From Babesia bigemina (lineage: Eukaryota), in NCBI RefSeq assembly GCF_000981445.1, contig NC_027218.1:806001-870000 (forward strand): a stretch of 64,000 nucleotides of DNA, read 5' to 3'. The notes beneath the pieces were generated by a model. It searched no databases, was not told where the DNA came from, and was given only the letters and a program-made list of their open reading frames with translations. The translations under genes and the position numbers were made by a program. Positions within the stretch are counted from its first letter, which is position 1. Every line of letters begins with the position of its first letter. Below, one piece after another: positions 47,677 through 64,000 of this stretch.

Positions 47677-50600
47677 ATGATGGCGCCTAAGAAGCTCACT
47701 GACTGCCCTGAAAATTTAAGGGAGGCTATCGACTGGTTGATACAGGTGAAAAATGGAGGTAATGGTAGCGGCCTTGATAAGCTGGGCAATGCTTTGAAAA
47801 TATTGATTGGTGAGGCTATTCAGAAGGCTAAGGATAGTAATAAACATACGGCAGATAAGCTTAGGTGCGCAAAAAATGATACTTACGACCGCCCTTATTG
47901 TAAAGAACTTGACGAAAGAATTGCTAAGGCTAATGTGGAATTGAAGATTTCTAAAAGTGTTCAAAATTTTGATAAAACTAGCAGAGATTCATTATCTGCC
48001 GACATAAAGCGATTCGAATCCCAAAAAGCGGATTGTGTTAAATCCCATTACATGGATGACCAAGGTATGAACGACATTCAGAATAAAATTAGCCAGGCTG
48101 ATGAGGTAATTAGCAAGCTTGGAAATGTATCTAAGGAACTTACAAATGAAGATAATACTAATATTCTTTGGAGGCTTTGTGATGGCATCGAGGCATTCTT
48201 AGGGTATGCTGCCGGCAATTACACGGGCAATGGCATCGTGTATGGCGATTGTGACCGTCTCCGTGACGCTGTTTTAATGTTCTTGAATGGCGTATTAGTG
48301 ACTGTGAAGGATGATGAAAATTTTAGGACATACGTTCTCAATGGTGGTGACATAAGTAAGCTTGTCGAAAATAAAAGTGGTAATGGACGAACGGAGTTCA
48401 ATTTGGTCATTAGTAGTGTTAGGTCCATGCTATCCCTGTGGGATGAAATGTTGACTGCGAGGACCAATAAGATTCTGTACGATATAGAAAGCTTTAAAGA
48501 TGGCATAGAGCATTGTTATCATAATATTGATAAACAACAAGGTAAGGGATGTATGGCGATGCACGCTTCATTCATGAGGTCTGTTGAAATGCTTAATCGT
48601 ACTATATCCGAAATTAGATGCAAAAATGATGGATATGCTGGAGTTGATAAAAATCTTCGGAGTAAATTAGACGTTCCATTTGGATATATCGATGAGGGTG
48701 TTAATATGTTGATAAATTCTGCGAACAATGATGGGCTTATAAAAGCCGTAGAAATGATTCAAAACATGTTTAACACATTGCCAGACGAACTTGAAAATTT
48801 TATAAGGGAGAGAGTCATCAGTACAATTAGCGATCACAGTGACCATGTTGAAGAATTAAAGAAATATATTAACATGCAGATTGATAATTATCGGAATAGA
48901 TTTGTGCAGGAACGCCTTTCCGTAGTAACCAGGGATTTGGAGATGGCTGTTGTCACATTTAGTAAAAATGCGTATAATCAGGGCGGTTTAAAAAATGTGG
49001 AAGTCGGTAACGCTATAAATGTTATTCAACAAATGTTAGAGAATGTAGACAATAATGTAAAAGATGAAGTTACTTTGAATGCTCAGAATGCTGACACACA
49101 AATCGCGTTGATAAAAAAGGCGCTTAATACAAAATCGCAGCTCGGTTTTACCGATGCGTTAAACGGTTTGAGTGAAGCGGTCGGTGATCCCGGTGAAATA
49201 TTTAATGAGAAGCATAAAAACGATTTGAAGGCGATCGTTATCAAAGCTCAGACGGATTTGAAGCAGGCTGCGTCTCGCGCCGAAGAAAATGCCAAGAACT
49301 TAGGCGGCTTAAGGAATGTAAAGGTCGCGGAAGCTATTCAAGTTATTCAGCAAAACTTGGGCAGGGCAGATCGTGTTACCAATATGGAGCTGTTGATTAA
49401 TTTGAAAAAGGATATCATGGATCACCAAGTTCGGCATATTATGGATGCTCTCAATCCGGATAAACCATTGCCAGGTGTTGTAAAGCGTTTACAAAGTTTA
49501 AATAGTATTATTGAGGAACCGCAACAAATATTTGACAGAGATCACAGAAACCGATTGGAAGAGCTGGTTGCAGCCACCGAAAAAGAATTCCTGGGTGCTT
49601 TAAATCAGGCTCAGTTATACACAACATGTACGAATTTCGGGTTGAAGAAGAAAGTTGACGAAATTTTCGAGTTGGTTTTGAAGAATGTCAAATCTGGCAA
49701 AATTCTGATTTCAGAGATAAAATCTTCGATCACACCGGCGCTTAAGAAGATTGGTGAAGGCATAACGGAGAATTTTCAATCGGGTAGCAATAACATATCA
49801 TCCAAACTACGCACGCTAGAGACGTCAATTGCTAACGCAATAGAAAGCAATTTTGAGCGCAAACTTGTGACCGAGATAACTGAACATGATTTCAATGGTT
49901 GGTTCCACAGCTACATGTCTCACGTACTCAAAGAAGCCAACGAAGTAATTAGCAAGGCCGACAAAGCTTATCAGCTTGTGTCTGAGCAGTTGGGTATGAT
50001 TAGTTCGGCGGTTAAGCATATTAAACAGAAAGCCGAAAGCGGAACTCTTAACAGTGTGATTTCTGGACTAGAAATTCAATTTGCCCCAATCTATCTATCC
50101 ATCGACACTAGTTCTTTTTACGAGGATGACCGGAAATCACGTCGAGCGTATTTTGACGATCTTAAATCTCATCTAAAGAACACGCTCAATATTCTCCAAG
50201 TCGCCTACAATAATGGTTACCAGAGTGCAGCCAAGACCTACCTCAGCGAAGCGATAAGTAAGATTAAGGCGGCTGTGGAGGAGGCGGAGCGACAGTATGG
50301 GGATGCGGTTGTAAGTGACATTAGTAGTATTAAAAGCAAGTTAAATAAGATAGTTGGCGATGTGTTTACCAAATCGGATCAGAGAGAGGCACTGCAAACA
50401 TTATTTGACAGGGATTTCGATAGTTTGGAAGACAAAGTAACGAGCAACTCCGCCTTCAATGATGATTATATCGCCCGTAAACAATGTTTCGAGAGCCTCA
50501 AGGCATTAATTAAAGATGCCGTAGAAAACCTATCCATCATTTACAAAGAGGCCTATCAAAGCTCGGCCAATACATATCTAAGTAGGGTCATTAAGGCTAT

Positions 50601-53600
50601 TGAAGATAAGGTTAAGGAGGCTGAAGGTACCTATGCGTTGGCGGTGCATATAGAACTTGAGAAGGTTAAGGAAAAGTTCAAAGAGATTACTGAAGAAAAT
50701 ATTAAAGATAAAGAGTCGAAATATGAGGAAAATCAAGACAGGAAAAAAAAACACACTTTAGGAACATTGTTTGATAAGCCTTTTCAAGATTTGCAAACTG
50801 CCGTCTTAAAACATTCCGCGTTCAAAAAAGATGCAGATTGTCGTAAAATGTGTTTTGAACATCTTAGGGCGTTGATTAATAACACAGTAAAAACTTTGAT
50901 TAAGGCTGCGAAGACGCATGATACTTGTGCATTAAAGGCAGAAGAGTATCTTGGAAAGGCATTTGAAGATGCTAAAGGCAAGATCAATACGCTTGGTGAC
51001 AGCGTCAAACATAAAGTAAAAGAAGCGTGTGATAGAGTTATTGCTGAAGTTTGTGCAATGCAGGCTGCGCATCACAAAGCTGACTTGGCGGCTTTGAAAT
51101 CTCTTGTGCAGAAACAACGTGATAACATTTTCAATATCGTTAATGAGGACTTGAAGACCGGGATTAAAGGTTTTTTACAAATCCTGAAAAGATGGTTTGA
51201 CATAAAAAGCGATCAGCTAACTACGGTACAAGACCTAAATCGTCTTTCCGGAGAGTTCAAAGACCTTTACGATAATCTGTACTCTTACGTTAAGTTCCAA
51301 CATGACGGCTTAGAAGTGGAAGTCGATAGTGAGGAAGATGCTTCTCAACCACAAACTCAGGTCCCTCCTCTCCAAGCGGTGCCAACTCCGATGGCCTCTG
51401 GTGGTTACAAAGCGCGGCCAGCTATGGCAGCGGTGACGTCTCAGACTCATGGCAAAAGCCAAGGTAAACCAGAACTCCAGAATTCCGGTCGTGCAGGATA
51501 TTTGCGTCCTGTTAAACGTGCAGATAAGTCGGTTTCCAAGGATACCATTGCTACATACCTTGTTGGGCTCGAGTATCATTCTCGAAAACTTTATAATGCA
51601 CTCACAGTCGGCAACTTCACTCACCAGTCCGCAAACATATGTCACGATTTTGCGAAGTTCCTCGAGTCAATGCGTCCTTTGATGTTCGGAAGGCAGGACA
51701 ATCCCCTGCTTGACATAATCAAATCCGGACTTAAGTCTTTCCTCGCTGAACTTGGGAAGGCATACATTTCGACATACTGCGGCGCGGCGCATATGTATGA
51801 TTGGAATCTCAATGGCAGGAACTGCGCCAAAGTGTTTATGACTTTGCTGGAGATACTGAAAACAGATTTCGATGAACTTCATGAGAAATGTGGTGAGAAC
51901 GGCGTGTGGAATAATAAAACTATTTGTGTTCTTGCGGGCAGTAATAGCTACAATGATCTTGGTTTATGCCTTAAGCGTTTCGGTTACGGAGTACCCAGCA
52001 AGGATGGGAAGCAGGACAACGAACTTCAGTGCAAGAGTAATATGAATGGTAATGAAATCTTCACGAAACTAGTACAACAAACCGTTACAGTAAAAGACGA
52101 TTACACTTTAATGACCACAATCGAAAACCTGTCCAAATGTCTTGCCACCTACTACCGTGTTCGTCACTACTCCACATTACAATCCAAGACGTATCCATTA
52201 TCCGTATACCAAATGCTTAATTGGCTTAGCGGCTTTCCAAACAATCCGGCATATGACGAATTGACGCTCAACGGCTTTAGTGCACTGTTCGATAAGCCTG
52301 ATGAGGAAGCTGCCGATGACACCAATGAAGGTGTTATCGCTGTTGCAGGTGATGCAGCAGAAAATAGTATGCACGACCTTCCATTCAAATTCGCAGATGA
52401 TGACGTTTTGGAGGCATACCCAGAGAACATCACACCGACGACATTAAGAGATACCCTTGCAGCTGTTTGCGCTAACTCACACAACGTTCTTACTTCCATC
52501 CTCGGTCACGGCCATAGCAACGGTATATACGCCTGTGAGTTCAACACAAATTCATTGAGCTTATGGTACCCTGCTGATACGAACAGTTTAGTTTGTATGT
52601 TATTTGACATCCTCAAACGTATCCACCACCAACTTTACATACTGTATCACCAGTGCTCATATGAGACTGATCTGGGTGGCTGGCGTGACTGTTGGTATGG
52701 CAGGGACGTCGGCGGTTCAGACTGGAGGTGCAATAGGCTTCAGTGTGCTGGCCAAATGGGTGACCAAAAGCACAACCAAACATGTGACCAAAAGTGTAAC
52801 CAAAGTGCTGGGTGCGGCCTCAAGTCACCTTTGCAATCTTACCTCGAAGATGGCTTGCAAGGGTACCTACCGCATCAAATCAAATACGAAAAGGGCAAAG
52901 TCGACTGCGCACTGAAGGACCACTCTGGTGGTCCCTGTAAGTCGCCTATTGGTTTCCCCGACATCAGCGTTACGGCATCGCACCGATATATTGGTAAGCA
53001 CATTCACGTTGCGCTTGCTAGTTTGTTCGGCGAGAAATCGTCTCCACTCAGCCAACTTTGCGCCCAGCTAAACTGTCTCCTGCCAAGCGCGCCGAAAACG
53101 CTGGATGACATGTTTGGTTTCTACTTAAATTTCATCGGCGGGTGGAGTAGGAAACAGAAAACTGCATTTGAGCAGACTGTGAGAGATGCAAACTTCAAAC
53201 GTACCAATGCAACGTTAGACATCTGTCCAGTATTCGAAAGCATTGAGCACAAGCCTGCCAAGCCCCCAGGTCAGAAAAATAGCCACATCACTGGAGATCT
53301 GTATTCACTTGTGAAATGCAGGTATAATGAAAGCAGCACTGTGGCTCATCCGTGTGGCCCGTATCTGAGACCCTCGTGCTATTATGCGAGCGGCATCTTT
53401 GCTGATAAGCACAATGACAAATATCTCTCTTGGATTGTGTACTTGACGGAGACATTCCACCGGTTGTTGAAGCAGCTATACGAGGAGTGTAACGGTAATT
53501 GCGGCGGTGAGAGACCTAAATGCCGTATTAGTAAGTGCGTTGAAAAATGCGCAGCCACAACGTCGCCCCTGTCTCCTGAATCTACTCACAAAGCATCATG

Positions 53601-54015
53601 CAAATCAATTGTTCATTGCAAATATACGCGTCCTACGTTCTACAAATTCGGTTTCATATTCAGGGATTGCAAAATCCTTTCCGACCAGTCAAGTAGACGC
53701 ACTTGCCAAGACTTTTGTACGGCATTGAATCATGTCATCAATGATAAAGAGACGGTGGGAGCAGCGCTTGCAAAATTAATTTATGTCACAATTCCAGAAT
53801 ATCTTCTCGAAATCAGAAAACCGTTCATGCTATTAACCCTCACTCTCTGGCTCCTCTCCTTGTTGTACCTCCTCCACATCATGGTCATCCGCCTCGACCT
53901 GCTCCACATCAAATCGCATTTGAGATCACCGTCATCACATCGCATCGCCGCGCAATCACTGCTGGCCGCCGCACGTGTCGGCAAACTTGCCCAGATCACC
54001 TACCTGCAACCTTGA
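47677..54015 (+). CDS. ves1: Large VESA1-family variant erythrocyte surface antigen (2112 aa)
   Basis: N-terminal LTDCPENLREAIDWLIQ; LCDGIEAFLGY...YTGNGIVY; YISTY...CAKVF; GWRDCWYGR; SPLQSYLED; C-terminal TM plus IRLDLLHIKSHLRSPSSHRIAAQSLL tail. Confidence 0.92.
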   Translation: MMAPKKLTDCPENLREAIDWLIQVKNGGNGSGLDKLGNALKILIGEAIQKAKDSNKHTADKLRCAKNDTYDRPYCKELDERIAKANVELKISKSVQNFDKTSRDSLSADIKRFESQKADCVKSHYMDDQGMNDIQNKISQADEVISKLGNVSKELTNEDNTNILWRLCDGIEAFLGYAAGNYTGNGIVYGDCDRLRDAVLMFLNGVLVTVKDDENFRTYVLNGGDISKLVENKSGNGRTEFNLVISSVRSMLSLWDEMLTARTNKILYDIESFKDGIEHCYHNIDKQQGKGCMAMHASFMRSVEMLNRTISEIRCKNDGYAGVDKNLRSKLDVPFGYIDEGVNMLINSANNDGLIKAVEMIQNMFNTLPDELENFIRERVISTISDHSDHVEELKKYINMQIDNYRNRFVQERLSVVTRDLEMAVVTFSKNAYNQGGLKNVEVGNAINVIQQMLENVDNNVKDEVTLNAQNADTQIALIKKALNTKSQLGFTDALNGLSEAVGDPGEIFNEKHKNDLKAIVIKAQTDLKQAASRAEENAKNLGGLRNVKVAEAIQVIQQNLGRADRVTNMELLINLKKDIMDHQVRHIMDALNPDKPLPGVVKRLQSLNSIIEEPQQIFDRDHRNRLEELVAATEKEFLGALNQAQLYTTCTNFGLKKKVDEIFELVLKNVKSGKILISEIKSSITPALKKIGEGITENFQSGSNNISSKLRTLETSIANAIESNFERKLVTEITEHDFNGWFHSYMSHVLKEANEVISKADKAYQLVSEQLGMISSAVKHIKQKAESGTLNSVISGLEIQFAPIYLSIDTSSFYEDDRKSRRAYFDDLKSHLKNTLNILQVAYNNGYQSAAKTYLSEAISKIKAAVEEAERQYGDAVVSDISSIKSKLNKIVGDVFTKSDQREALQTLFDRDFDSLEDKVTSNSAFNDDYIARKQCFESLKALIKDAVENLSIIYKEAYQSSANTYLSRVIKAIEDKVKEAEGTYALAVHIELEKVKEKFKEITEENIKDKESKYEENQDRKKKHTLGTLFDKPFQDLQTAVLKHSAFKKDADCRKMCFEHLRALINNTVKTLIKAAKTHDTCALKAEEYLGKAFEDAKGKINTLGDSVKHKVKEACDRVIAEVCAMQAAHHKADLAALKSLVQKQRDNIFNIVNEDLKTGIKGFLQILKRWFDIKSDQLTTVQDLNRLSGEFKDLYDNLYSYVKFQHDGLEVEVDSEEDASQPQTQVPPLQAVPTPMASGGYKARPAMAAVTSQTHGKSQGKPELQNSGRAGYLRPVKRADKSVSKDTIATYLVGLEYHSRKLYNALTVGNFTHQSANICHDFAKFLESMRPLMFGRQDNPLLDIIKSGLKSFLAELGKAYISTYCGAAHMYDWNLNGRNCAKVFMTLLEILKTDFDELHEKCGENGVWNNKTICVLAGSNSYNDLGLCLKRFGYGVPSKDGKQDNELQCKSNMNGNEIFTKLVQQTVTVKDDYTLMTTIENLSKCLATYYRVRHYSTLQSKTYPLSVYQMLNWLSGFPNNPAYDELTLNGFSALFDKPDEEAADDTNEGVIAVAGDAAENSMHDLPFKFADDDVLEAYPENITPTTLRDTLAAVCANSHNVLTSILGHGHSNGIYACEFNTNSLSLWYPADTNSLVCMLFDILKRIHHQLYILYHQCSYETDLGGWRDCWYGRDVGGSDWRCNRLQCAGQMGDQKHNQTCDQKCNQSAGCGLKSPLQSYLEDGLQGYLPHQIKYEKGKVDCALKDHSGGPCKSPIGFPDISVTASHRYIGKHIHVALASLFGEKSSPLSQLCAQLNCLLPSAPKTLDDMFGFYLNFIGGWSRKQKTAFEQTVRDANFKRTNATLDICPVFESIEHKPAKPPGQKNSHITGDLYSLVKCRYNESSTVAHPCGPYLRPSCYYASGIFADKHNDKYLSWIVYLTETFHRLLKQLYEECNGNCGGERPKCRISKCVEKCAATTSPLSPESTHKASCKSIVHCKYTRPTFYKFGFIFRDCKILSDQSSRRTCQDFCTALNHVINDKETVGAALAKLIYVTIPEYLLEIRKPFMLLTLTLWLLSLLYLLHIMVIRLDLLHIKSHLRSPSSHRIAAQSLLAAARVGKLAQITYLQP

Positions 54016-54747
54016 TAAATCACCTCACCACCACTCACCTAACTCACTACCTAGCAACCCACCGCCTAACCTAATACTCACCAAAGTATATTACCTAATG
54101 CATACTCAGCAATTTGGCAGCCGATGTAGTTCATGCCGTGATAGGTTCGTGGTTTGGGATGTTGAGTTGTGAGTTGCCTGTGAAACGTGCCCACGCCCTC
54201 CCATGGTTTCAGTGGGCAGCGATGTTAGGTTATAAGGGACTAATGGAGGCTTATGACATAGTTTATGACTAGTGAAAGTGCGCCGTATGCAACGTGACTG
54301 TTTGGCGTGATAGCCATTATGTGCGTCGATAGGCAAAGAACGTCGACAGGGCAGTGCTATGATGGCCGGTGGACGGCGCAGTTAGGTGGCCTTGGTGGTA
54401 GCAGTGTAAATAATATGCATGTTAACCAAGTAATGTGGTTCACTAAGGCACTCGTTATGACGAAAATGTTATGACATTTAGAAGCAGCACTGGAAACGTT
54501 CGACGGTCTGTGGCAGATGGAGTTCGCTGCGCAACTGGCACCGGTATATCTGCACGTTAGTGCTAGGATACCGTCCACATGCGTTAACTCGGCAGTACAT
54601 TAGTGATGATAGCTACATAGTCGTGATGTAACCGGCGGTGCGTTGGATGGCGGTCAGCTGGGTGGTCGGAGCGCAGATTGTTAGGGGAGTGTCCGAGGCT
54701 GAGGGGAGTGATTCATGTTTGCAGGTTGAGGGGAGGAAGCGTGTAAG
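54016..54747 (+). repeat. Conserved ves-downstream spacer, copy A (inverted homolog of 61947-62701)
   Basis: Blocks shared with the reverse complement of 61947-62701: cacctcaccaccactcacctaac..acctagcaacccaccgcctaacctaatactc; gataggttcgtggtttggga; ggtggccttggtggtagcagtgtaaat; gtgtccg.ggctgagg. Confidence 0.9.
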
Positions 54748-55092
54748 ATGACTACTGGATGCCAGTGTCGTTTGCCATGCACTGGTAGCTGTAGATGCTG
54801 TTCATGGTGTTGTCCCACATGTAAGGATGAGACATCATGCGCAGCGTGCATAAGTTACAGGCAAGACCCACGCACTAGCGATCATGCTAGTTGCCCAAAG
54901 TGTAGGGTAGAGGAAGATAGCGAACCTTGTGACTGTCCGTGTTGTAAGACCTCTATCATTCCTTACATAATATCCGTCACCGTCATCATCCTCCTCGCCG
55001 TCTGCATCATGACCATGTTTCGTATTCGCCCGTTTCACAAAGTGCGCGATTTCTGCGCACAGAAAATGAACGGTTTGCGTCGCGCTCATTAA
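54748..55092 (+). CDS. Small Cys-rich single-TM protein, ves-linked family, copy A (114 aa)
   Basis: 17 Cys in the first 66 aa; TM IIPYIISVTVIILLAVCIMTMF; tail RIRPFHKVRD. A paralog lies at 61494-61946. Confidence 0.75.
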   Translation: MTTGCQCRLPCTGSCRCCSWCCPTCKDETSCAACISYRQDPRTSDHASCPKCRVEEDSEPCDCPCCKTSIIPYIISVTVIILLAVCIMTMFRIRPFHKVRDFCAQKMNGLRRAH

Positions 55093-56052
55093 TAAACTCC
55101 GACACTTCGTATTATCGCACTTAAAGCATCGTATGATGGATTAATAGAACGATGGTTGTCTAATAACGTGTTATTAAATGCTTCACAATAGTGCATCTGC
55201 GGGTGTTCAGCGAGACATAGCATCAAATGTGCATTGGCAAAGTGAACGGGATCAACCATCCTGTTCTGTTGTACGTATTAGTCGGACGCGTTGCGACGCT
55301 GCCCATTTGGTCGCAGAAGATCGCCGCACGTTTGCCAACCTACGCATAACACAGTACATGCAGCCTTGATACGTCATCTCATCCTAATGTCTTACCAAAT
55401 TTCCCACCTGCTACCTAATTTAATATCCGCGTCAAGTTTTTAGTTATTTAGGATGTTGTTTTGTGCGCTACTTTCAAGTCGTGGCTGCCTCATCCCACAT
55501 CATCAGTGGGCAGTGAAGTTACTTGAGTGACCTTCCATGTACGCAGATGAGTAGTGCCTTGCAAGATGTGGTGGTGCACCCGTTGTTAGATGAACGGATG
55601 GCGTGTTAGATGTATGGGCGTAAACGTCGTATATGCTCAGTTGACCAAGACTTGTGGAGAGTTATTTATTGTTTTACAGGATTGGTTGTAAAGTCCAATT
55701 GGTGAGAATGGACGTTGAACCCGGAACCTCAATTCACTGCGCTTGGTGGTGTCCTCGTATTCGTCGTCATCCATCACCTTGTATAGTATCTGACATCGAC
55801 CTGCAAGCAATTGCATATTTCCTTGGTTGACAAGACGTCGCTTCCACGCTTTGCTCATCAATTAACTTCAGTTGGCAAACAGGTCATGCAGAGTCGCATC
55901 GCAATGACAATGTGGACGCTAACGCAATAGTGTTGCGGTTCTCCAAAGCCTAACATTCTAAAACATTGCTGCAATATAAAATATAGTCGTAATTATCCTA
56001 TATAAACTGCAGCCTTTTCCACTTGCATAGCTCTATTGCCCAGTTCTATCAC

Positions 56053-56511
56053 TCATTGTTTGGCTTTCAAAAATATTAGGTCGGCCATTTTTTGCGATGA
56101 ACCACTGTTCTGGTCGTTGACAGTGTAACCGACCTTACGTAGGATTTCTGCTGTTTTCTTCCAGTCGAATGGACCATTAACAGATTTGTGTAACTCGGCT
56201 CCACTGGTGTCTTTCGTGTTTTGTGCGGCGGATTCTACTTTCTCCTTTCTCACTCTGCGCCACTCCTCTAAATCGCGTTGTGCCTTTTTCGTTGCTGCTT
56301 CCATAACCTCGGCCTCCTTCTGCTTTTTCGCCTCTATAGCCGCTTGAATGTCAACGCGCCACTTCTGCATGACGCTATTCTGCTGTGTGTGCTCGGAGGT
56401 AGGGAAACTTGAGCCAGTGTGACTTTCGTAACCTGGTGAACTCATATCTAGTTTGTTCGCATCGATCCCCCAAATGTCCTTAGACGCAGATCTGAACTCT
56501 TGTTGATCCAT
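56053..56511 (-). CDS. CLC: Clathrin light chain (divergent)
   Basis: Central helix QKWRVDIQAAIEAKKQKE...AQRDLEEWRR, then DWKKTAEIL and QKMADLIFLK, matching the CLC pattern (KWREE...A...L.EW...W..V..L...RM..L..LK). Confidence 0.7.
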   Translation of the reverse strand: MDQQEFRSASKDIWGIDANKLDMSSPGYESHTGSSFPTSEHTQQNSVMQKWRVDIQAAIEAKKQKEAEVMEAATKKAQRDLEEWRRVRKEKVESAAQNTKDTSGAELHKSVNGPFDWKKTAEILRKVGYTVNDQNSGSSQKMADLIFLKAKQ

Positions 56512-57816
56512 AGTGTTTACTTAGGTGTACGACCGGTCGTCGTTTGCCACCTATTGTTGTCAGTGAAACGACACAGGTCGCGTACTAATTATCCAGATGA
56601 CACGCTGACACAGGCAAAAGTTGGCGGTTCTTACTTTTATGCCTAAAGGTAACTTCAATAGACGTAGACGGTAGTTAGGGATATGTTCTACCTTTTCTAA
56701 TATCCCCTTAGCGAGTCATATACAGGGGCGCTTTATTAGTGTTGCTTCTACAAATACCAGGCGATTTAGTTTATAAAAGCGGCAGAATGCAATTTGTGGG
56801 TTCAATATATGTGGTGTTTAACCTGATTGTTACCTTTCACGTTAAGCCGTTTCGATCATACAGCCCTGGGGATGTGCACACCTGCACAGGTACACACCAG
56901 TGTAAGCAGAGATTCCGCGACACATTTGACCTTTTATGTGAAAACGTGCTTGATTCATATTAAAGGAGACACTAGGATGGATATAGCTTGTTGGGATTGA
57001 CGCTGCAAATGTGTAACGTGATACGCGCCTTGACACCGAGTAACGATGTGACTGTACCGTGCCAATTACGATGGCTTAATAACCACACTGTGACATTAAA
57101 AACAACATTACGCTTTTGTATCATGCAGCAACGCGGAAAAACAAAAAAGGTCCCATTTGTCTTCTTCGGGCTAAGGTGTATGGTAGGCTTGACTTGAATT
57201 AACGTATTGTTCCCTAATTACGTTCTTGGACCACTGTGTACAAAAACACAAATATAAGCGCCAATTAACAAGGATTTGCAGTATAGCGGATGGGTCTGTC
57301 TTACGCTGCTTTAGGTTATGATGCATAAGTCACGTGATTGATCGCAATATGCGTAAAATACTACCACAAACAGTTATATACCGACAGAATGGTTGTCATA
57401 TTGCAATGCAGACATATTTTACTGCAAATGTGTACGCTGTGGTAACCTAGCATATACTGTGGAAGCCTTGCCTTCTCCATTCTTCGATTGCGCGTAACAT
57501 TGCGCTACACAACTCACGCAGTAGTTTGTTGCTTGCAATTTTGAATATATGTGCTACATGTATTGCGGTGTCTGGTGCTATACACTAGACATCCCAAATG
57601 TACTTACGGCGCTAGCACCGCTACAACGATAAAACGCCATGCAACCCTCAACCAGTGTACGGATGTTGTGATTCATTGGACGTATTTTATAATCCTTCAT
57701 ACGGTAACAGAGAATCTAATGTAGGCGCAAGGGTTATCGACGAACACATCTCAACACATTTTGCTTTCCGCATCTAGCGGGATAGCCTCCGGGCGTTGTT
57801 AGACTATATCGCAACA

Positions 57817-58722
57817 ATGTTCATGGGTTCATCGAGCTTCATTTCAATGGGTAAGGCCCTCAAGAAGAAGACTCCAAGTACGAATGCGGATGCTCGACGA
57901 TTAATGTTTGTGGATTCCTCAATCAAAGCTGAGTTTGTGGAAATCGTACAGCTTCCCAATCCAACTAACCTCTTAGATGGCGCTTTATATGCTGTATTAG
58001 ATGGGACGATTTATCTGATTCGCGGAATACTTCCTAATGTCCATCCTGTGAGCTTGTTTGTGGATAACACGATTTTGAATCAGTCGTTTCTGGCGACATT
58101 TAGGTTTGACGTCATTTTTATTTTCACATCCATTCTGTTCTTGGCGCCAGATAAGTTCATGTCTATGCCACAGCGTATATACGAGTTGTATCGATCCGGC
58201 CTCAATGAGTCCCAAGGGCACGGCGCATTGGAGGCAGGCGCCTTTGCACTCTGGAACAATAATGTGGACAAAATTCAAGAGCGCATACGGTATCTGTGCG
58301 ATATTGCCAACCCGGGTGAAGCTAAGGACGTAGTCATTAAGCCTAATGTGTCTAAATTCCAGGCTATGCTGGAATACAAGGTACAATCTCTGGAGAAGGC
58401 TGTTCGAAGCTCAAACATAATTATGGGATCGTATTGCCAATCAAAAGAGACATCTAACAGTGAACATGTACGCAAGCATTACATCACTGTTCAAGATGGA
58501 AAATTGCGGTCGTTTGCTTGGTCGTTAATATCGTCCATGCTGAATGCTGAGGCACGAAACCGTCTCGTACCGTCGAACGGGTCGATGATAGACCATCAGG
58601 CAATAGACGATGTCAATCTGTCGAGAAAACCTGTCATAACATCGAGTAAGAGGCCGAAGCAGCGCAAGATAGCGGTAGCCAGTGGCACCGCCTCTATCAC
58701 TTCATTTTTCAAGCCTGTATAA
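57817..58722 (+). CDS. RNASEH2B: Ribonuclease H2 subunit B
   Basis: VQLPNP...YAVLDGTIYLI...SLFVDNTI...TFRFDVIFI (Ydr279-like N-terminus) and a C-terminal PIP box GTASITSFFK. The start may instead be 57847. Confidence 0.75.
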   Translation: MFMGSSSFISMGKALKKKTPSTNADARRLMFVDSSIKAEFVEIVQLPNPTNLLDGALYAVLDGTIYLIRGILPNVHPVSLFVDNTILNQSFLATFRFDVIFIFTSILFLAPDKFMSMPQRIYELYRSGLNESQGHGALEAGAFALWNNNVDKIQERIRYLCDIANPGEAKDVVIKPNVSKFQAMLEYKVQSLEKAVRSSNIIMGSYCQSKETSNSEHVRKHYITVQDGKLRSFAWSLISSMLNAEARNRLVPSNGSMIDHQAIDDVNLSRKPVITSSKRPKQRKIAVASGTASITSFFKPV

Positions 58723-58873
58723 AACTTCCGTTTTTAAACATTCAGCCTGGATAGATGTAGTTACATGCTTGAGGCAACATAGAACCGTGTTACTTAGAAA
58801 CTTAAATGGCCCACTTTCTAATTTGTCTACTGTGCCGTGAGTGGTTACGTGTGGCATTAGTCCGTGTTAGAGT

Positions 58874-60060
58874 TTACTCTAGGCTGCGCTTCGCAATCCA
58901 TCGGTATGATCTGAGGGTTCCACGACACGTGGCAACTTGGTTGCCAGGTGTTACACGTTCTTGGCGTTGTTGAATGTTGTGCATTTCTTCGACGAAATCA
59001 TCCACTGCAGATTCCTGTCCTGAAGCTCTGCTGCCTTCGCATTGTCTTCCAGAATGAGTATTCCACACGTTAGGTACAATGACGACACCTCGATGTCCAG
59101 CTTGGGGTCCTCACGCTTGGCATACAGAACCTTATGAGTTGATTTTACGTGCTTTCTGTTGTATAGCCATTTGTTTTGGGCCAACCTGAGGTCCCTGACG
59201 CTCTTGTACGTCGTGTACTCCACTCCGAATTCCATTCCATATCTTCCTTCCAAGTGCATCTTGATGTGAGATATGTACGCGTATGTGTCGCGAAAATGCT
59301 GCATGATCGCAGCTCTCCTGGTTGACGTCACCTCGTCTGCTGAAAACGTCAACCACAGTCGTAGCAGCATGGCTTCCGCTCTGAATACCATGCTGTGGAG
59401 CTCTCTCCCCATCTCTTTCCGGGGGAGGTAGAGCCGCTGTGTGTTCGCCCACTTCTTGTGTCCGGACTTCTTGGTTATTATTCTCCGTACTGCCAGGTCA
59501 ATCTTGTCGAAGTGCGTGGTCTACGTGGAGATTACGCCGATGTAGTAGTTAGTGACGCTGATGGCGTACTGGTTGATAGCCATCGAGAGGTTTTTCCCCG
59601 ACAGCTTTGACGCAGCCAGTAGCTCCGTTCTTCTGCAGTTTTCACCATGCTGCCAAACGTATCATTGCTTGTCCCTGAGATTGCATAGTTTGTGTGCCTG
59701 GTAGTCGTCGAAGGCGATTATTTTGAAAGCGTCAACACAGAACAAGTATGAGATGTAGATGCATAATGAGTTGTGGCGGTGACCTTGTGGATGCCGTTTC
59801 TATAATTAAGGCTAGTTGGCGTGAAATGTCGGATTACGAAATAAATGGGCGGTGTCTTCAGTGTCATTTGTGATTCGTAAAAACCGAGTCAGTTAGGATT
59901 GTAGCGATGACTAACAAAAGTAGGGTGGAGTAGCACTGACCCAATGAGGTATGGGTGCAAGTTAATCAAGGTATGGATAGGCAAAGTTATTGTTGTTTTT
60001 GCATAAGCTTGCAAGGCGTTTCGTCTCAAACGCTTACGTCAACCAGATGACATGGGGGTG
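58874..60060 (-). mobile_element. Decayed non-LTR retrotransposon (R2/R4-group-like: RT, thumb, CCHC knuckle), pseudogenised
   Basis: Ordered remnants on the minus strand: W(V)DV.AFET (~60022-60045), PPIYFVI, SYLFCVDAFKIIA (59713-59754), LSGKNLSMAINQYAISVTNYYIG (59536-59604), frameshift, RLYLPRKEMGREL (59398-59436), QDRNLQW..KCTTFNNAKNV*HLATK (58936-59022). Confidence 0.8.
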
Positions 60061-60273
60061 TGGAGAGACGAGGACCAAAAGTCAAAGGGGTAAAAGCGAA
60101 GTTGAAAATTAATACTCACCACAATTATCCTAAGCTAAGCCATGAGAGTGAATGCGATGGTCGTTAATGTTTTTAAATTGAATGTCTCATCGCTACAGAA
60201 GCGCTTTGTGGGCTGCATAAGGCTACGAGACAACACTGATCGTGGCAACGAATAGTTAGGTGGTGATGTTGAA

Positions 60274-60422
60274 AGCACGGAAGGGCTCATGCTTTGAGGC
60301 GAATGTGGTACCCATCCCTTGCTTATTGGCGGAAGGCCACCAAGGAATCTGGTGAGCTAGGTTCCAGAGCACGGAAGGGTTCACATATTTGGGCGAATAC
60401 AGCACCAATCCCTTGCTTATTG
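60274..60422 (+). repeat. Imperfect direct duplication, 94-bp period
   Basis: agcacggaaggg...ggcgaat...atcccttgcttattg occurs at 60274-60328 and again at 60368-60422. Confidence 0.75.
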
Positions 60423-61493
60423 ATCAAACAGCGGACGCAAAGAACCAAGAATATGAGGAGTGGGAGACCAATAAATACGCCAAGAGGGGCTGCCCAGTTA
60501 ACCGTCATCTTCCTTACAAATCAGTTCAAAACTCTAAGAATTAACGAACCACCTACCTTACGTATCGCATCGCCACTTCAAGTGTTGATATATAAGTGTC
60601 TTATAACCCGTTCATGCGAACGTGACGGTCATTACGCTTATCTTACATACCATGATGATCCAATAGCACCGCATGCATCGGAGAGACATGGTGATGATGC
60701 GGCGCGAATAAGATGCAGATCGAATCCACGACATTCAACAGCGCAAGGTTACTGCCACTCATCACACTCCACTATTCTCACCCTTCCACAACCGTTGAAC
60801 GTCTACTTTGTGCCATACCACTGGTGCAGTTGTGGGCGCATAACTGAGCTATACAGCGATATTAAGATATCAGTATTTACCAGAATGTCACATCCGCGTG
60901 CCAAGTAACTAATCTGTCATGTGGTAATAACTTCGGGCAATATACCGGTCCGTCTCATCAGTGGGCCCATTAGCATTTTTATCCACATGTTCCGGGGACT
61001 CATGATATCGCACACATACTATCCATTCACCTGAGACATAAGTCACTGTATATGCTTCCTCTCAACCAATACACAGTAATGGGAAACTCGAAACGTGTGA
61101 CACATTATACGGCGATTTCGTTAGGTGAAAGGCTGAGCTGGCGGTGGCAACATCAAGGCAGCAATGATCATCGTGGTGGTGAGTGACAAACGTTGCCATG
61201 AGGGTGACTGGTGAATGCACGATATCCTGCGAGAAAGGATGAGGAGCGTATCGATGCCGCCGAGAACTACGTACAACAGGTCACCGTGGTTAATCCTGTT
61301 CAGCTTGCAAATGCTTACCTAATGCCATATGTCGATGTAATTTGTGAACGTCTCAAGGGCAACTACAGTGTACAATTATGAAACATTTAATAATACGACA
61401 TTGGATACGCAGTGTACTGTTTGTTCACATTACTGTTAGCTGAGTGCGATAATTAAAATTTCCAAGTTGTTTAAAGAGTGCGACACAGAAGGT

Positions 61494-61946
61494 TCATTTG
61501 CAATTTAAAATATCGCAGACCTTGTGGAACGGGCGGATGCGAAAGACGATCATGACACATATAAGGAGGATGAAGATGATAATGACGATGACGGGAGCGA
61601 TGACGGTGCTGGAAGGGCTCCCACCGGGGGTGGCGAAAACACTGGAGGGATGCTCACTACCGGTGTAAGAGGCGATATAAGTGGAAGATGAGGTAGGGCG
61701 TGATGTTCTACTTTTACAACATGGACATTCACAGGTGGGCTTGGTACACTCACTGCATTTTTTCGTACATCCTGGTGGTTTGCATTCGTCCTTTGATGGG
61801 CCCGTTTTGCGCTGATGATAGAAGTTTTGACAGTGTGAGCATCCGTAACCCTGACATTTTTCACAACACCAGAAACAGCAATTACACAGCTTGAGCGATA
61901 GACATCCATTATGACACAACGGACATGGCACCCCTCCATAAACCAT
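61494..61946 (-). CDS. Small Cys-rich single-TM protein, ves-linked family, copy B (150 aa)
   Basis: 19 Cys in the first 77 aa (CNCCFWCCEKC...CECPCCK), Ser/Thr/Pro linker, TM VIAPVIVIIIFILLICVMIVF, tail RIRPFHKVCD. Confidence 0.75.
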   Translation of the reverse strand: MVYGGVPCPLCHNGCLSLKLCNCCFWCCEKCQGYGCSHCQNFYHQRKTGPSKDECKPPGCTKKCSECTKPTCECPCCKSRTSRPTSSSTYIASYTGSEHPSSVFATPGGSPSSTVIAPVIVIIIFILLICVMIVFRIRPFHKVCDILNCK

Positions 61947-62701
61947 GTTCCCTCTTCTACTTCGTCATCAACATGCAAAACCATGAAGCACGTGCCTCAG
62001 CTTAGGAAACTCTTTCCATCAACCTGCAAACCATGAAAAACGTACCTCAGCCCCGGACACTGACTGTCTCTTATAGGCGCTCCACGTGCTACCTGGTAAC
62101 CGCTACCTATAGCATCGCCTATTCCATCACAGCTGAAGTAGTACCCAGTTATAGCATGTGGACGGTATCGCACCAGTGGCATGCAGGTCAACCGGTACCA
62201 GTTGAGCAGTCAAGACCACCCGTCACTGTCCAAATTGCGAACGCCGATTCTGAATGGCATCACAGTTGTGACATAATAAAATCATATGTAAGCTATATCG
62301 CTCGATTAATACGTTTCTCATTTACACTGCTACCACCAAGGCCACCGAACTCCGCCGTCCACTGGCCATCACGTCAGATTGCCCCGGCACATCCATTGCC
62401 CAGCAACGAACATTGCTAACATTGCAACCGGTATCCCAACCACCTTATAGTAATTCACGTAGCACGGTACTGTCCCTGCTGCAGCGTTGGTGACAAATCA
62501 CCTAGCTTCACGGTGCGATGACGCAGACGCCTCTCACAAGTGACGCAAACCTCAACGTCCCAAACCACGAACCTATCGATGCATGATCTACATTAACTGC
62601 CATATTGCTGAGTATACATTAGGTAATATATTTGGGGGAGTATTAGGTTAGGCGGTGGGTTGCTAGGTAGTGGGTTAGGTGAGTGGTGGTGAGGTGGTCT
62701 A
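61947..62701 (-). repeat. Conserved ves-downstream spacer, copy B (inverted homolog of 54016-54747)
   Basis: Same conserved blocks as copy A, in the same order relative to the ves stop and the Cys-rich ORF. Confidence 0.9.
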
Positions 62702-64000
62702 TCAAGGTTGCAGGTACAGCACTTTGTTGAGTGCTTTAACACGTGCAGCGGCGAGTAGTGATTGCGCGGCGATACGATGTGATGAGGGAGAGTGCAAATG
62801 CGATTTGATGTGGAGCAGGTCGAGGCGGATGACCATGATGTGGATGAGGTACAAGAGAGAGAGGAGCCACAGGGCGAGGAGAAGGTAGGAGAAGGGTTGT
62901 CTTATTTCCCATAAAAACTTATCGCACTCGTCAAATAGTTTGCTGAAATATTCGGAGTGTAGTACATTACTCAGTTGGGTACGGAAGTCGAAGCACGTTT
63001 TTTTCTTAGAGTTCAACTCTTCTGCATCATCATACGTTAGTCCGTATCTATACAGCGTAGGCAATACACCTTTGCAGCTTACTATTGAAGGGCATTGGCA
63101 ACCAAATCCGATTGACGAGGGGTTAAGGAAACCATGCTGACCACGCTTACAGTTATTGCTGTTTAGGCATACACGGCACCCCCAGTCCCGGCAAAATATG
63201 TCTTGAAAATCCTTGAGCAGTGATTCAAGATAGCAATGGAATTGCCATGGTAGGTAGACAGCCCATGATAGGTAGAGGTCGGAATGCTTGGGGGCATGAT
63301 GCCTGTAGTAGTCCGTATAAAGTGAGAATAGGTAAGGTGCGCTGCTAAGATTGTTGTGCATACATATACCCCGCGTAGAAAGGTGCATAAGGTGATGGTA
63401 GACGCATTTAGAATGTTGCACCGTGTCTGCACTACCGTATGCATCGCTAAATGCATCAGTAAACGCGGATGTATTGCCATATAATTTCATGGACAGTTTC
63501 TTAATGGATGTTTCGAAATTTGTTTTGATAACGTTTGTATTTGCCTTATTACTACCATGGAATTTATTAACTAATGATGATACAAAACCAAAGTGTTCAG
63601 GCAACGTAGTAGGAGGTCTTGGAACAAGGCAGAAAAGAGAGGTTATATCCACATTGACGAAGAATTCACCTATAATTCCACTCAGATCCGAACCGGTACG
63701 CGCGCTACCTGAGAACTCCCTGAAGCCAAGGGGAGTGAGACACGGCATCCCATTCTGTGATGTGGGACACGTAAAACATTTGGGCTGACATCCAATGGAG
63801 CGCAGTTGATGAGGCAAATAACCGAGCAAACAGTCACTTAGATAGGACATGAGCGGTGACTGAGATTGGCAATCAAATTTGTCCGTTGAATGGTCGTTGC
63901 ATTGCCAGTTACAGGGTTGGGCACTTTTACCGTATTGACAATCGGCCCAACCGTAATGTACAGCGCTGATTTTACATTGGGTGTGCAAGAATCTGAGGAC
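62702..64000 (-). CDS. ves1: VESA1-family gene, 3' portion (runs off the window end)
   Basis: The frame is open to base 64000. GWADCQYG, SPLMSYLSD, CLTPLGF, YLSWAVYLP, CPSIVSCKGVLPTLYRYG, then TM plus IRLDLLHIKSHLHSPSSHRIAAQSLLAAARV..YLQP. Confidence 0.92.
   Translation of the reverse strand, partial: VLRFLHTQCKISAVHYGWADCQYGKSAQPCNWQCNDHSTDKFDCQSQSPLMSYLSDCLLGYLPHQLRSIGCQPKCFTCPTSQNGMPCLTPLGFREFSGSARTGSDLSGIIGEFFVNVDITSLFCLVPRPPTTLPEHFGFVSSLVNKFHGSNKANTNVIKTNFETSIKKLSMKLYGNTSAFTDAFSDAYGSADTVQHSKCVYHHLMHLSTRGICMHNNLSSAPYLFSLYTDYYRHHAPKHSDLYLSWAVYLPWQFHCYLESLLKDFQDIFCRDWGCRVCLNSNNCKRGQHGFLNPSSIGFGCQCPSIVSCKGVLPTLYRYGLTYDDAEELNSKKKTCFDFRTQLSNVLHSEYFSKLFDECDKFLWEIRQPFSYLLLALWLLSLLYLIHIMVIRLDLLHIKSHLHSPSSHRIAAQSLLAAARVKALNKVLYLQP

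What the first reader, a model, noticed from the sequence alone, without database searches (positions are those of the whole stretch)
53800..62900. Repeated two-gene cassette: ves1 + conserved spacer + small Cys-rich TM protein
Seen: both ves genes are followed on the same strand, 732 and 755 nt after the stop, by paralogous small ORFs (54748-55092 +, 61494-61946 -). The ORFs share CxCCxWCCxxC...CxxC...CxxC...CxCPCCK, one C-terminal TM and FRIRPFHKVxD. Cys, Trp, TM and tail are conserved while the spacers between Cys diverge and carry indels, which is what purifying selection on a real protein would leave. The intergenic DNA and the 3' flank (attatcgcact; ttattaaatg.ttca.aat) are homologous too, so the whole unit was duplicated. 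The proteins have no signal peptide and mimic VESA topology (no SP, C-terminal TM, short basic His-containing tail), which differs from the SP-bearing SmORFs linked to ves in B. bovis. Inference: a possibly undescribed ves-partner family, such as a metal-binding or palmitoylated accessory subunit, an export chaperone or a miniature variant antigen co-regulated with the upstream ves.
Basis: partly seen in the sequence, partly recalled or inferred. Interest (0 to 1): 0.8.

Follow-up and report, generated by a model that had tools for sequence, protein, structure and literature searches.

The report
Unnamed cysteine-rich gene family beside ves
Two unannotated small genes, each about 740 bases downstream of a Babesia bigemina variant-antigen (ves1) gene, belong to an uncharacterised family of at least 64 cysteine-rich single-pass membrane proteins that these searches found only in this parasite; they likely display a variable cysteine-rich knob on a membrane, and whether they are expressed or work with ves is untested.

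Summary
ORF A (54748-55092, +) and ORF B (61494-61946, -) lie 732 and 755 nt downstream of two ves1 genes on the same strand. They are paralogues, and the whole unit is duplicated, from the ves 3' end to about 250 nt past each ORF.

They are real family members, not chance ORFs. A profile of A+B found 22 representative proteins, and a wider profile found 58. All 58 are annotated "hypothetical protein [Babesia bigemina]" and none has a Pfam domain. In 19 full-length members, 16 Cys and one Trp are invariant at 28-49% identity. Between A and B, pN is 0.38 and pS 0.69, and the FRIRPFHKV tail shows 5 synonymous and 0 non-synonymous changes.

A and B themselves are not annotated. The window maps to B. 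bigemina chromosome III.

Three things stay open:
- Linkage to ves outside this window could not be measured, because no genome was available.
- Expression is unshown. 0 of 24 family genes appear in one RNA-seq table, but only 1 of 7 ves genes does.
- Only 17 of 64 database models have the full Cys domain.

No paper describing the family was found. Verdict: an unnamed lineage-specific multigene family, likely a membrane-displayed variable protein. Partnership with ves is plausible but unproven.

The parts
47677..54015 (+). ves1 gene 1 (2112-codon ORF). The annotated protein starts at the second ATG (47680) and is BBBOND_0303510.
   Evidence: ORF. The 2111-aa form is in the collection on a 3,518,759-bp contig. 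Its size and coordinates match BBBOND_0303510 in the proteome table of PMC4066756. 271 ves-type relatives were found in B. bigemina and B. ovata.
54016..54747 (+). 732-nt spacer of unit A. The first ~150 nt are a highly conserved ves 3' flank (likely a 3' UTR) and the rest is moderately conserved.
   Evidence: Identity in 50-nt windows is 47, 46 and 42 of 50 just after the stop, falls to 14-16 of 50 at 54204-54300, then is 29-41 of 50.
54696..54735 (+). Two copies of the motif AGG[CT]TGAGGGGAG just upstream of the ORF A start. They are degenerate copies of an upstream repeat that is translated as 'LRGLG...' in mis-modelled paralogues.
   Evidence: Pattern search. 27 of 64 database models begin with LR[GE][LV]G-type repeat peptides. 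The N-terminal extension of P0009 aligns to the window from 54640.
54748..55092 (+). ORF A, 114 aa. An unannotated full-length family member: Cys-rich domain with 19 Cys, TM at 70-88, tail FRIRPFHKVRDFCAQKMNGLRRAH.
   Evidence: The exact sequence is not in the collection.
55093..55340 (+). Conserved 3' flank of ORF A, the end of the duplicated unit.
   Evidence: 22-36 of 50 identical per window up to about 55340, then 14-20 of 50.
55322..55381 (+). Relic of a ves 3' end: the last ~50 nt of the CDS, the stop, and the start of the 3' flank. It marks the right edge of unit A.
   Evidence: Local alignment to the ves 3' end scores 41. 300 dinucleotide shuffles give mean 19.0, sd 2.1, and 0 of 300 reach 41. 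The repeat finder family D1.
61207..61493 (-). Conserved 3' flank of ORF B.
   Evidence: The ves-end relic is not significant here (score 22-23, reached by 32-37 of 300 shuffles).
61494..61946 (-). ORF B, 150 aa. An unannotated family member: 22 Cys, Ser/Thr/Pro-rich stalk, TM at 116-134, tail FRIRPFHKVCDILNCK. Relative to A the tail is cut short by an apparent 1-nt deletion.
   Evidence: Not in the collection. The 1-nt gap and the aligned TAA stops are seen.
61947..62701 (-). 755-nt spacer of unit B, with a 50-nt direct repeat (61978-62061) that carries the GCTGAGG motif.
62702..64000 (-). ves1 gene 2. Only the C-terminal 432 codons are in the window; it ends ...YLQP. It is probably BBBOND_0303560 (inferred from locus-tag order).

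Best explanation
ORF A and ORF B are two unannotated members of an uncharacterised multigene family, found in these searches only in Babesia bigemina, that encodes small single-pass membrane proteins; these proteins are predicted to sit with a hypervariable, probably disulfide-bonded cysteine-rich knob outside and a short conserved basic tail in the cytoplasm.

Shown by the calls or the sequence:
- The two ORFs are paralogues.
- The family has at least 64 deposited members.
- The members share a common architecture: start Met; a ~75-aa domain with 16 invariant Cys and one Trp; a variable Ser/Thr/Pro-rich stalk of 0 to about 60 aa; one TM; then a FRIRPFH[KR]V or FRFPVGRNIRDF tail.
- There is purifying selection on the scaffold residues.
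- In this window each gene lies ~740 nt downstream of a ves1 gene on the same strand. It sits inside a ~1.5-kb duplicated unit that runs from the ves 3' end to a relic of another ves 3' end.

Inferred:
- The N-out/C-in topology, from the positive-inside rule and the stalk.
- The cassette likely spreads and is homogenised along with ves 3' ends by recombination.
- The protein is likely a variable surface or exported membrane protein.

Expression and any physical or regulatory partnership with VESA1 are untested.
For: Paralogy and duplication of the unit:
-.

Family:
- A profile of A+B scored against 1.84 billion representatives gave 22 proteins at E<=1e-3, 9 at E<=1e-10, and a best hit of 5.9e-44.
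- 10 of 10 hits looked up are B. bigemina hypothetical proteins on chromosomes I, III and IV and on unplaced contigs.
- A 17-sequence profile found 58 proteins. All 58 are labelled B. bigemina and none has a Pfam domain.
- The B. ovata proteome is in the same database, because its ves proteins were found, yet it gave no family hit.
- All 52 tblastn hits of the 64 family proteins on the window (E<=1e-3) fall in 54640-55089 or 61473-61955.

Constraint:
- In 19 full-length members at 28-49% identity to B, 16 Cys, W26, F135 and R136 are invariant.
- For A against B, pS is 0.69 (saturated) and pN is 0.38.
- 17 of 29 identical residues other than C, M and W use different codons.
- The FRIRPFHKV tail has 5 synonymous and 0 non-synonymous changes.
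- Both frames stay open across 8 internal indel blocks.

Topology clues:
- There is one hydrophobic segment and none at the N-terminus.
- After the TM come 3-4 basic residues (RIRPFHKVR); the 15 residues before the TM hold none in B and one Lys in A.

Hypervariability:
- The Cys-domain DNA is about 40% identical between A and B, less than the non-coding flanks at about 60-90%.
Against: Expression:
- 0 of 24 annotated family genes checked appear in the 3,721-gene RNA-seq table for blood stages and kinetes (PMC9806345 DataSheet_1).
- This is weak evidence. Only 1 of 7 ves genes checked appears there, and the reads were mapped to the BOND reference.
- 0 of 6 family IDs were found in the supplementary files of PMC4066756, which include the proteome table.

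Integrity of copies:
- Only 17 of 64 database models have the first Cys cluster.
- 28 have only the second cluster.
- 19 have neither, and many of these start with translated upstream repeats. Many copies may therefore be truncated, decayed or mis-modelled.
- The tail of ORF B is shortened by an apparent 1-nt deletion.

Other gaps:
- The genome annotators did not call A or B.
- The AlphaFold2 model is low confidence (mean pLDDT 56.8; only the TM helix is confident), so no fold supports the knob idea.
- Linkage to ves outside the window was not measured.
Confidence: 0.65

Rival explanations
1. The ORFs are decaying, non-functional relics. A once-coding cassette is carried passively in the repeated DNA that flanks ves 3' ends, and A and B are no longer expressed.
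For: - A and B are not annotated.
- 0 of 24 family genes appear in the RNA-seq table, and 0 of 6 in the supplementary files of PMC4066756, which include the proteome table.
- 47 of 64 database models lack the first Cys cluster.
- ORF B has a frameshifted tail.
- The cassette is bracketed by ves 3'-end sequence.
Against: - 16 Cys and one Trp are invariant in 19 full-length copies at ~30-49% identity.
- Synonymous sites are saturated while scaffold residues are kept.
- The tail shows 5 synonymous and 0 non-synonymous changes.
- Both ORFs are intact from a conserved start Met.
- The RNA-seq table also lacks 6 of 7 ves genes, so absence from it says little.
Confidence: 0.15
2. The gene is real but the topology is the opposite. 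It would be a tail-anchored protein whose Cys-rich N-terminal domain faces the cytosol and binds metal (metallothionein-like CxC, CC and CxxC clusters) or is palmitoylated.
For: - There is no N-terminal hydrophobic (signal-peptide-like) segment.
- The TM ends 26 (A) and 16 (B) residues from the C-terminus, within the range of tail-anchored proteins (general knowledge).
- Cys makes up 15-17% of residues, in CxC, CC and CxxC spacing.
Against: - Basic residues cluster after the TM and are few or absent just before it. By the positive-inside rule the tail would be cytoplasmic.
- A variable Ser/Thr/Pro-rich stalk, including PPPPPP runs in paralogues, separates the Cys domain from the membrane. That fits poorly with palmitoylation at the bilayer.
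- The loops between the Cys residues are hypervariable, which is unusual for a metal-binding housekeeping domain.
- None of this is decisive.
Confidence: 0.12
3. The small ORF is not an independent gene. It would be part of the ves transcript, either as a downstream ORF in a long 3' UTR or as an alternative 3' exon spliced onto ves.
For: - It is on the same strand and at a near-constant distance (732 and 755 nt) from the ves stop.
- The spacer is conserved.
- The frame of ORF A is open for ~100 nt upstream of its ATG, and P0009 carries a matching extension.
Against: - The start Met sits 5-12 residues before the first Cys in 16 of 19 full-length members.
- The ves proteins checked end at the conserved ...LQP (B. 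bigemina) or ...FSP (B. ovata) stop (107 of 120).
- All 22 profile hits in the all-lengths search are 236 aa or shorter, so no ves-fused model exists among the representatives.
- Most family genes carry their own locus tags.
Confidence: 0.05

Closest known systems
SmORF family of Babesia bovis
   Same: A lineage-specific multigene family of small proteins that lies beside ves genes and has unknown function (PMC4066756 and PMC9477259, passages seen).
   Different: - SmORF proteins have a signal peptide and no TM (table in PMC9477259). A and B have no N-terminal hydrophobic segment and one C-terminal TM.
- SmORF was reported absent from B. bigemina (PMC4066756).
- Among the 64 family hits, all 60 whose source was seen are from B. 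bigemina. The other four were not looked up.
ves2 of B. bigemina and B. divergens
   Same: A short ves-associated multigene family in the same genome, interspersed with ves1 (PMC4066756).
   Different: ves2 derives from the ves1 5' end, has a signal peptide and lacks a TM (PMC4066756). The present family shows no significant similarity to ves and has a TM and a cytoplasmic tail.
VESA1 / ves1 proteins
   Same: - No signal peptide, a single TM near the C-terminus, and a short conserved basic tail containing His.
- A Cys-rich stretch lies before the TM.
- The TM and tail are conserved while the ectodomain is variable.
   Different: - The family proteins are 10-20 times smaller.
- They lack the conserved ves C-terminus (...HIKSHLRSPSSHRIAAQSLLAAARV...YLQP).
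- The profile-profile match is not significant: hhalign P=0.022, probability 2%. hmmsearch gives 11 bits against 7.6 bits for reversed decoys.
Giardia variant-specific surface proteins (recalled, not tested here)
   Same: The architecture works alike: a Cys-rich ectodomain full of CxxC motifs, one TM, a short invariant cytoplasmic tail, and a large variable family.
   Different: - Giardia VSPs are much larger and have a signal peptide (recalled).
- No sequence relationship was seen, because no non-Babesia protein was found among the hits.

Membership tests
Unnamed B. bigemina Cys-rich single-TM family (e.g. BBBOND_0310660, BBBOND_0403980, BBBOND_0109240) | Significant profile similarity to deposited members | tested here: met
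   The A+B profile hits BBBOND_0310660 at E=5.9e-44, and 9 proteins score E<=1e-10. tblastn of P0005 on the window gives E=1e-31 on ORF B and 6e-20 on ORF A.
Unnamed B. bigemina Cys-rich single-TM family | N-terminal domain with the invariant Cys scaffold, including CCxWCC and CxCxCC | tested here: met
   A and B carry all 16 invariant Cys and the Trp of the 19-sequence alignment.
Unnamed B. bigemina Cys-rich single-TM family | One TM followed by a FRIRPFH[KR]V (type 1) or FRFPVGRNIRDF (type 2) tail | tested here: met
   A and B have the type 1 tail and a single hydrophobic segment.
SmORF (B. bovis) | N-terminal signal peptide and no TM | tested here: not met
   In the first 30 residues of A and B, the highest 10-residue mean hydropathy is 0.58 and 1.35, and there is one C-terminal TM. 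No dedicated signal-peptide predictor was run.
SmORF (B. bovis) | Sequence similarity to SmORF proteins | tested here: inconclusive
   No SmORF sequence was fetched or compared directly. All 60 family hits with a seen label are B. bigemina.
ves1 / VESA1 | Conserved ves C-terminal domain (TM plus ...SHRIAAQSLLAAARV...YLQP) | tested here: not met
   hhalign of the family against 109 ves C-termini gives probability 2% and P=0.022. hmmsearch gives 11 bits against 7.6 bits for reversed decoys.
ves2 | Homology to the ves1 5' end, a signal peptide, and no TM | tested here: inconclusive
   The architecture differs, because a TM is present. No ves2 sequence was compared directly, and the defining features come from PMC4066756 passages.
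Any Pfam family or solved structure | A match above threshold | tested here: not met
   - Pfam gave only a sub-threshold Sre hit on the TM of A (E=0.05) and nothing for B.
- 58 of 58 relatives have no precomputed Pfam domain.
- The PDB profile search had a best E of 0.22.
- ESM Atlas scores were 0.76 or lower.

The most novel reading that the evidence does not exclude
This family is a third, so far unnamed arm of the B. bigemina variant-antigen system. It would be a repertoire of 60 or more hypervariable miniature membrane antigens, physically coupled to ves1 3' ends and moved and diversified by the same 3'-end recombination. It may itself descend from the Cys-rich, TM and tail portion of an ancestral ves gene, as ves2 descends from the 5' portion. 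Each copy would be switched on together with the upstream ves, so that the small protein reaches the infected red-cell surface alongside VESA1.
Probability: 0.12. Interest if true: 0.8.

Novelty: new variant of a known kind. Interest (0 to 1): 0.5.

Why it matters
Antigenic variation and red-cell modification in Babesia are currently discussed in terms of a short list of families: ves1, ves2, SmORF, mtm/mfs and tpr (review PMC9477259, passages seen). A family of 64 or more Cys-rich single-pass membrane proteins is not on that list. It has a conserved anchor and hypervariable loops, and at least here it sits immediately downstream of ves1.

If it is expressed in the bovine host, it would be a candidate variable surface component, a diagnostic or vaccine-relevant antigen set, and a marker for how ves loci recombine. 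If it is silent, it still shows that the reference annotation misses or mis-models members. A and B are absent from it, and 27 of 64 models start in an upstream repeat.

Tried and rejected
- **Own genome.** None is held for this window, so no genome-wide count of copies or of ves linkage was possible.
- **Sequencing runs.** None was listed and no RNA holder was listed, so no reads could be laid.
- **Word-index protein search with B alone.** No hit. The exhaustive profile search was needed.
- **Earlier findings of this scan.** Nothing was found by place, sequence or words.
- **Homology to the ves C-terminus.** hhalign gave P=0.022 and probability 2%. hmmsearch gave 11 bits against 7.6 bits for reversed decoys. 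This is not significant and was rejected as a demonstrated relationship.
- **Intron after FRIRPFHK joining to the ves-like relic (a "mini-ves" tail).**
  - A TCGCAG acceptor-like site aligns in both units.
  - The frames and products differ between A and B.
  - A's unspliced tail (...KMNGLRRAH) recurs in P0005, P0014 and P0016.
  - The idea was rejected.
- **Third copy near 46892-47059.** tblastn gave E=0.022, but the upstream gene is a coiled-coil protein, not a ves. This is a chance TM-like match.
- **Structure.** The AlphaFold2 model on the 19-sequence alignment has mean pLDDT 56.8 and pTM 0.31. It is too poor for a fold search, so none was run.
- **Other look-ups.** ESM Atlas and the PDB sequence search gave nothing.
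- **Metagenome contigs.**
  - The first attempt failed because the alignment had no conserved stretch.
  - A 6-sequence alignment gave 386 pattern matches, none of them a relative.
- **B. ovata paper supplements (PMC5660447).** No BBBOND, XP_ or CDR identifiers were found, so its cluster table could not be used.
- **Bacterial-type promoter and terminator scan.** Not applicable to this organism.
- **Locus-tag adjacency to ves.**
  - Only 16 chromosomal ves tags were visible among the 120 listed of 271 hits.
  - Three of them lie 30 tag units before a family gene (0111370/0111400, 0304790/0304820, 0200030/0200060).
  - A large hypothetical protein, 0310230, directly precedes family gene 0310240.
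  - This is suggestive only and was not used as evidence.

Full report
**1.

The ORF listing (standard code, ATG starts) gives these ORFs:
- a 2112-codon ves-type ORF at 47677-54015 (+);
- a 114-codon ORF at 54748-55092 (+), called A here;
- a 150-codon ORF at 61494-61946 (-), called B here;
- the C-terminal 432 codons of a second ves-type ORF at 62702-64000 (-).

The gaps from ves stop to small-ORF start are 732 and 755 nt.

A and B are paralogues.
- BLASTP gives E=3e-7.
- tblastn of each against the whole window finds the other at about 1e-16. Nothing else scores better than E 0.002, so the window holds exactly two copies.
- A weak third hit at 46892-47059 lies behind a coiled-coil gene, not a ves, and is chance.

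The surrounding DNA is duplicated too. 1029 of 1922 alignment columns are invariant. Identity in 50-nt windows runs as follows:

| Region | Identity |
|---|---|
| ves TM and tail coding, and first ~150 nt after the stop | ~84-94% |
| Short stretch inside the spacer | ~30% |
| Rest of the spacer | 60-80% |
| Cys-rich coding part of the small ORF | ~40% |
| TM and tail coding of the small ORF | ~70% |
| ~250 nt past the small-ORF stop | ~60-70% |
| Beyond ~55340 (A) and ~61207 (B) | ~35% (background) |

**2. Where the window is.**

Pfam places ordinary core genes in the first 42 kb: SPT6, MT-A70, a cyclin, a CobW-type GTPase and BOP1.

Three neighbours of the small ORFs are exact matches to deposited proteins on a 3,518,759-bp contig. 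These are a 152-aa protein with a clathrin light chain hit, a 301-aa protein and a 153-aa protein.

Relatives of A and B carry names such as "hypothetical protein BBBOND_0310660 [Babesia bigemina]" on a contig of that same length.

Gene coordinates in the RNA-seq supplementary table of PMC9806345 fix the position:
- SPT6 is BBBOND_0303350 at 817955-823351 of LK391709.1.
- MT-A70 is 0303370 and BOP1 is 0303490.
- The 152-aa gene is 0303530 at 862053-862511.

This places the window at chromosome III, about 806001-870000.

The first ves gene, read from its second ATG, is a deposited 2111-aa protein. Its size and position match BBBOND_0303510 in the proteome table of PMC4066756, where it has 3 peptides.

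Neither A nor B is in the protein collection. Nor are eight other ORFs of 60 codons or more lying on or beside the two small-ORF loci. A and B are therefore unannotated.

**3. A and B belong to a sizeable family.**

Pfam finds nothing, and a word-indexed search with B alone finds nothing.

An exhaustive HMMER search with the A+B profile against 1.84 billion representatives finds 22 proteins at E<=1e-3. Nine are at E<=1e-10 and the best is 5.9e-44. All are between 59 and 236 aa.

Ten of ten looked up are B. bigemina hypothetical proteins.

A 17-sequence profile then finds 58 proteins. All 58 are labelled B. bigemina and none has a Pfam domain. By locus tag they fall as 11 on chromosome I, 6 on II, 23 on III, 1 on IV and 17 on unplaced contigs.

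Adding six hits that are not in that list gives 64 database proteins. Four of these (P0013, P0016, P0020, P0022) were not looked up by name.

B. ovata proteins are in the same database, because its ves proteins were found, but none matched the family. Small genes may simply be uncalled in B. ovata.

A scan of metagenome contigs found no relative.

**4. Anatomy of the family.**

Nineteen full-length sequences (17 from the database plus A and B) align as follows:
- a start Met;
- a ~75-aa domain in which 16 Cys and one Trp are invariant, at 28-49% identity to B (C-x2-3-C ... C-x-CC-x-W-CC-x2-C ... C-x2-C ... C ... C ... C-x-C-x-CC);
- a Ser/Thr/Pro/Gln-rich stalk of 0 to about 60 residues, with poly-Pro runs in some members;
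- one TM;
- a short basic tail.

Two tail types exist among all 66 sequences. FRIRPFH[KR]V is in 29, including A and B. FRFPVGRNIRDFLVRKIPFCIAFYS is in 39. Three models carry both.

Only 17 of the 64 database models have the first Cys cluster. Another 28 have only the second cluster, and 19 have neither.

27 of the 64 begin with peptides such as ...LRGLGAAVVEGTGSGSG.... These are translations of a repeat that lies upstream of the genes. Degenerate copies sit just 5' of A (54696-54735) and of B, and the extension of P0009 aligns to the window from 54640.

So many deposited models are truncated, decayed or started too far upstream. A and B are among the few intact type 1 copies.

**5. Evidence that the ORFs are constrained as protein.**

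- Between A and B, synonymous sites are saturated (pS 0.69) and pN is 0.38. The Nei-Gojobori dN/dS is about 0.27, a rough value given the saturation.
- 17 of 29 identical residues other than Cys, Met and Trp are encoded by different codons.
- The nine codons of FRIRPFHKV carry 5 synonymous and 0 non-synonymous differences.
- Both frames stay open across eight internal indel blocks.

The coding DNA of the Cys domain is less alike than the non-coding flanks. This pattern is expected if the loops diversify while the flanks are homogenised or constrained.

The tail of B is shorter than that of A. The DNA alignment shows a 1-nt gap, after which the original TAA stops still align. A's longer tail recurs in P0005, P0014 and P0016.

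**6. The unit ends in a piece of ves.**

At 55322-55381, 230-290 nt past the stop of A, lies a relic of a ves 3' end: the last ~50 nt of coding sequence, the stop, and the first bases of the 3' flank.

Its local alignment to the ves 3' end scores 41. Dinucleotide shuffles give 19.0 +/- 2.1, and 0 of 300 reach 41. The matching place in unit B is too decayed to be significant (32-37 of 300 shuffles reach its score).

The cassette is thus bracketed by ves 3'-end sequence on both sides in unit A. From this I infer that recombination between the highly conserved ves 3' ends carries the cassette along. That would explain why it sits behind ves genes.

I tested whether the small gene itself derives from the Cys-rich, TM and tail part of ves. 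The profile comparisons are not significant.

I also tested whether an intron joins the ORF to the relic. The candidate products are not conserved between A and B.

**7. How it most likely works.**

Shown: a small protein with one TM near the C-terminus and no N-terminal hydrophobic segment.

Inferred: the basic residues directly after the TM, the few or no basic residues before it, and the Pro/Ser-rich stalk argue for a cytoplasmic tail and an exoplasmic Cys domain. That domain would then be disulfide-bonded.

VESA1 also reaches a membrane surface without a signal peptide (PMC9477259 table). The lack of a signal peptide is therefore not an obstacle in this parasite.

The combination of a conserved anchor with a hypervariable ectodomain is what variant surface families show. 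The opposite, tail-anchored topology, with a cytosolic metal-binding or acylated domain, remains possible.

The structure prediction was uninformative (mean pLDDT 56.8).

**8. Expression and linkage are open.**

- None of 24 annotated family genes checked is in the 3,721-gene table of PMC9806345. Only 1 of 7 ves genes checked is there either. Absence from the table therefore cannot be read as silence of this family in particular.
- Six family IDs are absent from the supplementary files of PMC4066756, which include the proteome table.
- No sequencing run was listed for the region.
- Genome-wide linkage to ves could not be measured. Locus-tag neighbourhoods and shared small contigs give hints only.

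**9. Comparison with what is known.**

From passages seen:
- PMC4066756 states that SmORF is absent from B. bigemina.
- It describes ves2 as a derivative of the ves1 5' end that has a signal peptide and no TM.
- It remarks only in general terms that other species-specific genes often have a conserved C-terminus and a TM.
- The 2022 review PMC9477259 lists ves1, ves2, SmORF, mtm, mfs and tpr.
- The B. caballi (PMC10463595), B. ovis (PMC10471129) and B. ovata (PMC5660447) genome papers do not mention such a family in the passages seen.

No paper in the library holds any of six family locus tags. Five other text searches turned up no description.

Supplements of bioRxiv preprints and papers outside the library were not seen.

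**10. Verdict.**

This is a real, constrained and partly mis-annotated lineage-specific family, and A and B are two new intact members. It is analogous in genomic setting to SmORF and ves2 but unrelated to them in sequence and different in architecture. Whether it is a partner of ves remains a hypothesis.

Noticed in passing
window 55322-55381: A 60-nt relic of a ves 3' end (end of CDS, stop, start of 3' flank) lies downstream of ORF A, at the edge of the duplicated unit. The short ORF 55178-55369 ends ...ITQYMQP, echoing the ves ending ...ITYLQP.
   Followed up: yes
window 54640-54747 and 61947-62061; database proteins P0009, P0025, P0060 and others: An upstream repeat, translated as ...LRGLGAAVV(VLQL)VEGTGSGSG..., precedes family genes and forms the N-terminus of 27 of 64 deposited models. 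It is probably a tandem DNA repeat that was read as coding. Its role (promoter element or minisatellite) is unknown.
   Followed up: partly
window 61494-61520 (tail of ORF B): Relative to ORF A and P0005, ORF B has an apparent 1-nt deletion in the tail. This brings a stop 9 codons early, while the ancestral TAA stops still align.
   Followed up: partly
window 54016-56052: By tag order, locus tag BBBOND_0303520 should lie between ves gene 1 (0303510) and the 152-aa gene (0303530). None of the ORFs of 60 codons or more that I tested there, including ORF A and its antisense ORF, matches a deposited protein. What that tag annotates is unknown.
   Followed up: partly
window 1-64000: There is a marked composition shift. 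Core genes at about 4-34 kb have 54-62% G+C, and the ves-bearing part from about 44 kb onward has 39-47%.
   Followed up: no
window 56053-56511 (-): The 152-aa gene deposited as a hypothetical protein (BBBOND_0303530) matches the Pfam clathrin light chain family (E=1.4e-6, above the gathering score). It has one peptide in the PMC4066756 proteome table.
   Followed up: partly
database proteins P0015, P0032, P0040: Three deposited models carry both tail types in series: a FRIRPFH unit followed by a second TM and a FRFPVGRN tail. Separate ~62-aa models (P0063, P0066-P0068) consist only of that second TM and tail. This suggests tandem or fused units at some loci.
   Followed up: no
window 47677-47682: ves gene 1 has two adjacent ATG codons. 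The deposited protein starts at the second, which is why the 2112-aa reading was not found by exact look-up.
   Followed up: yes
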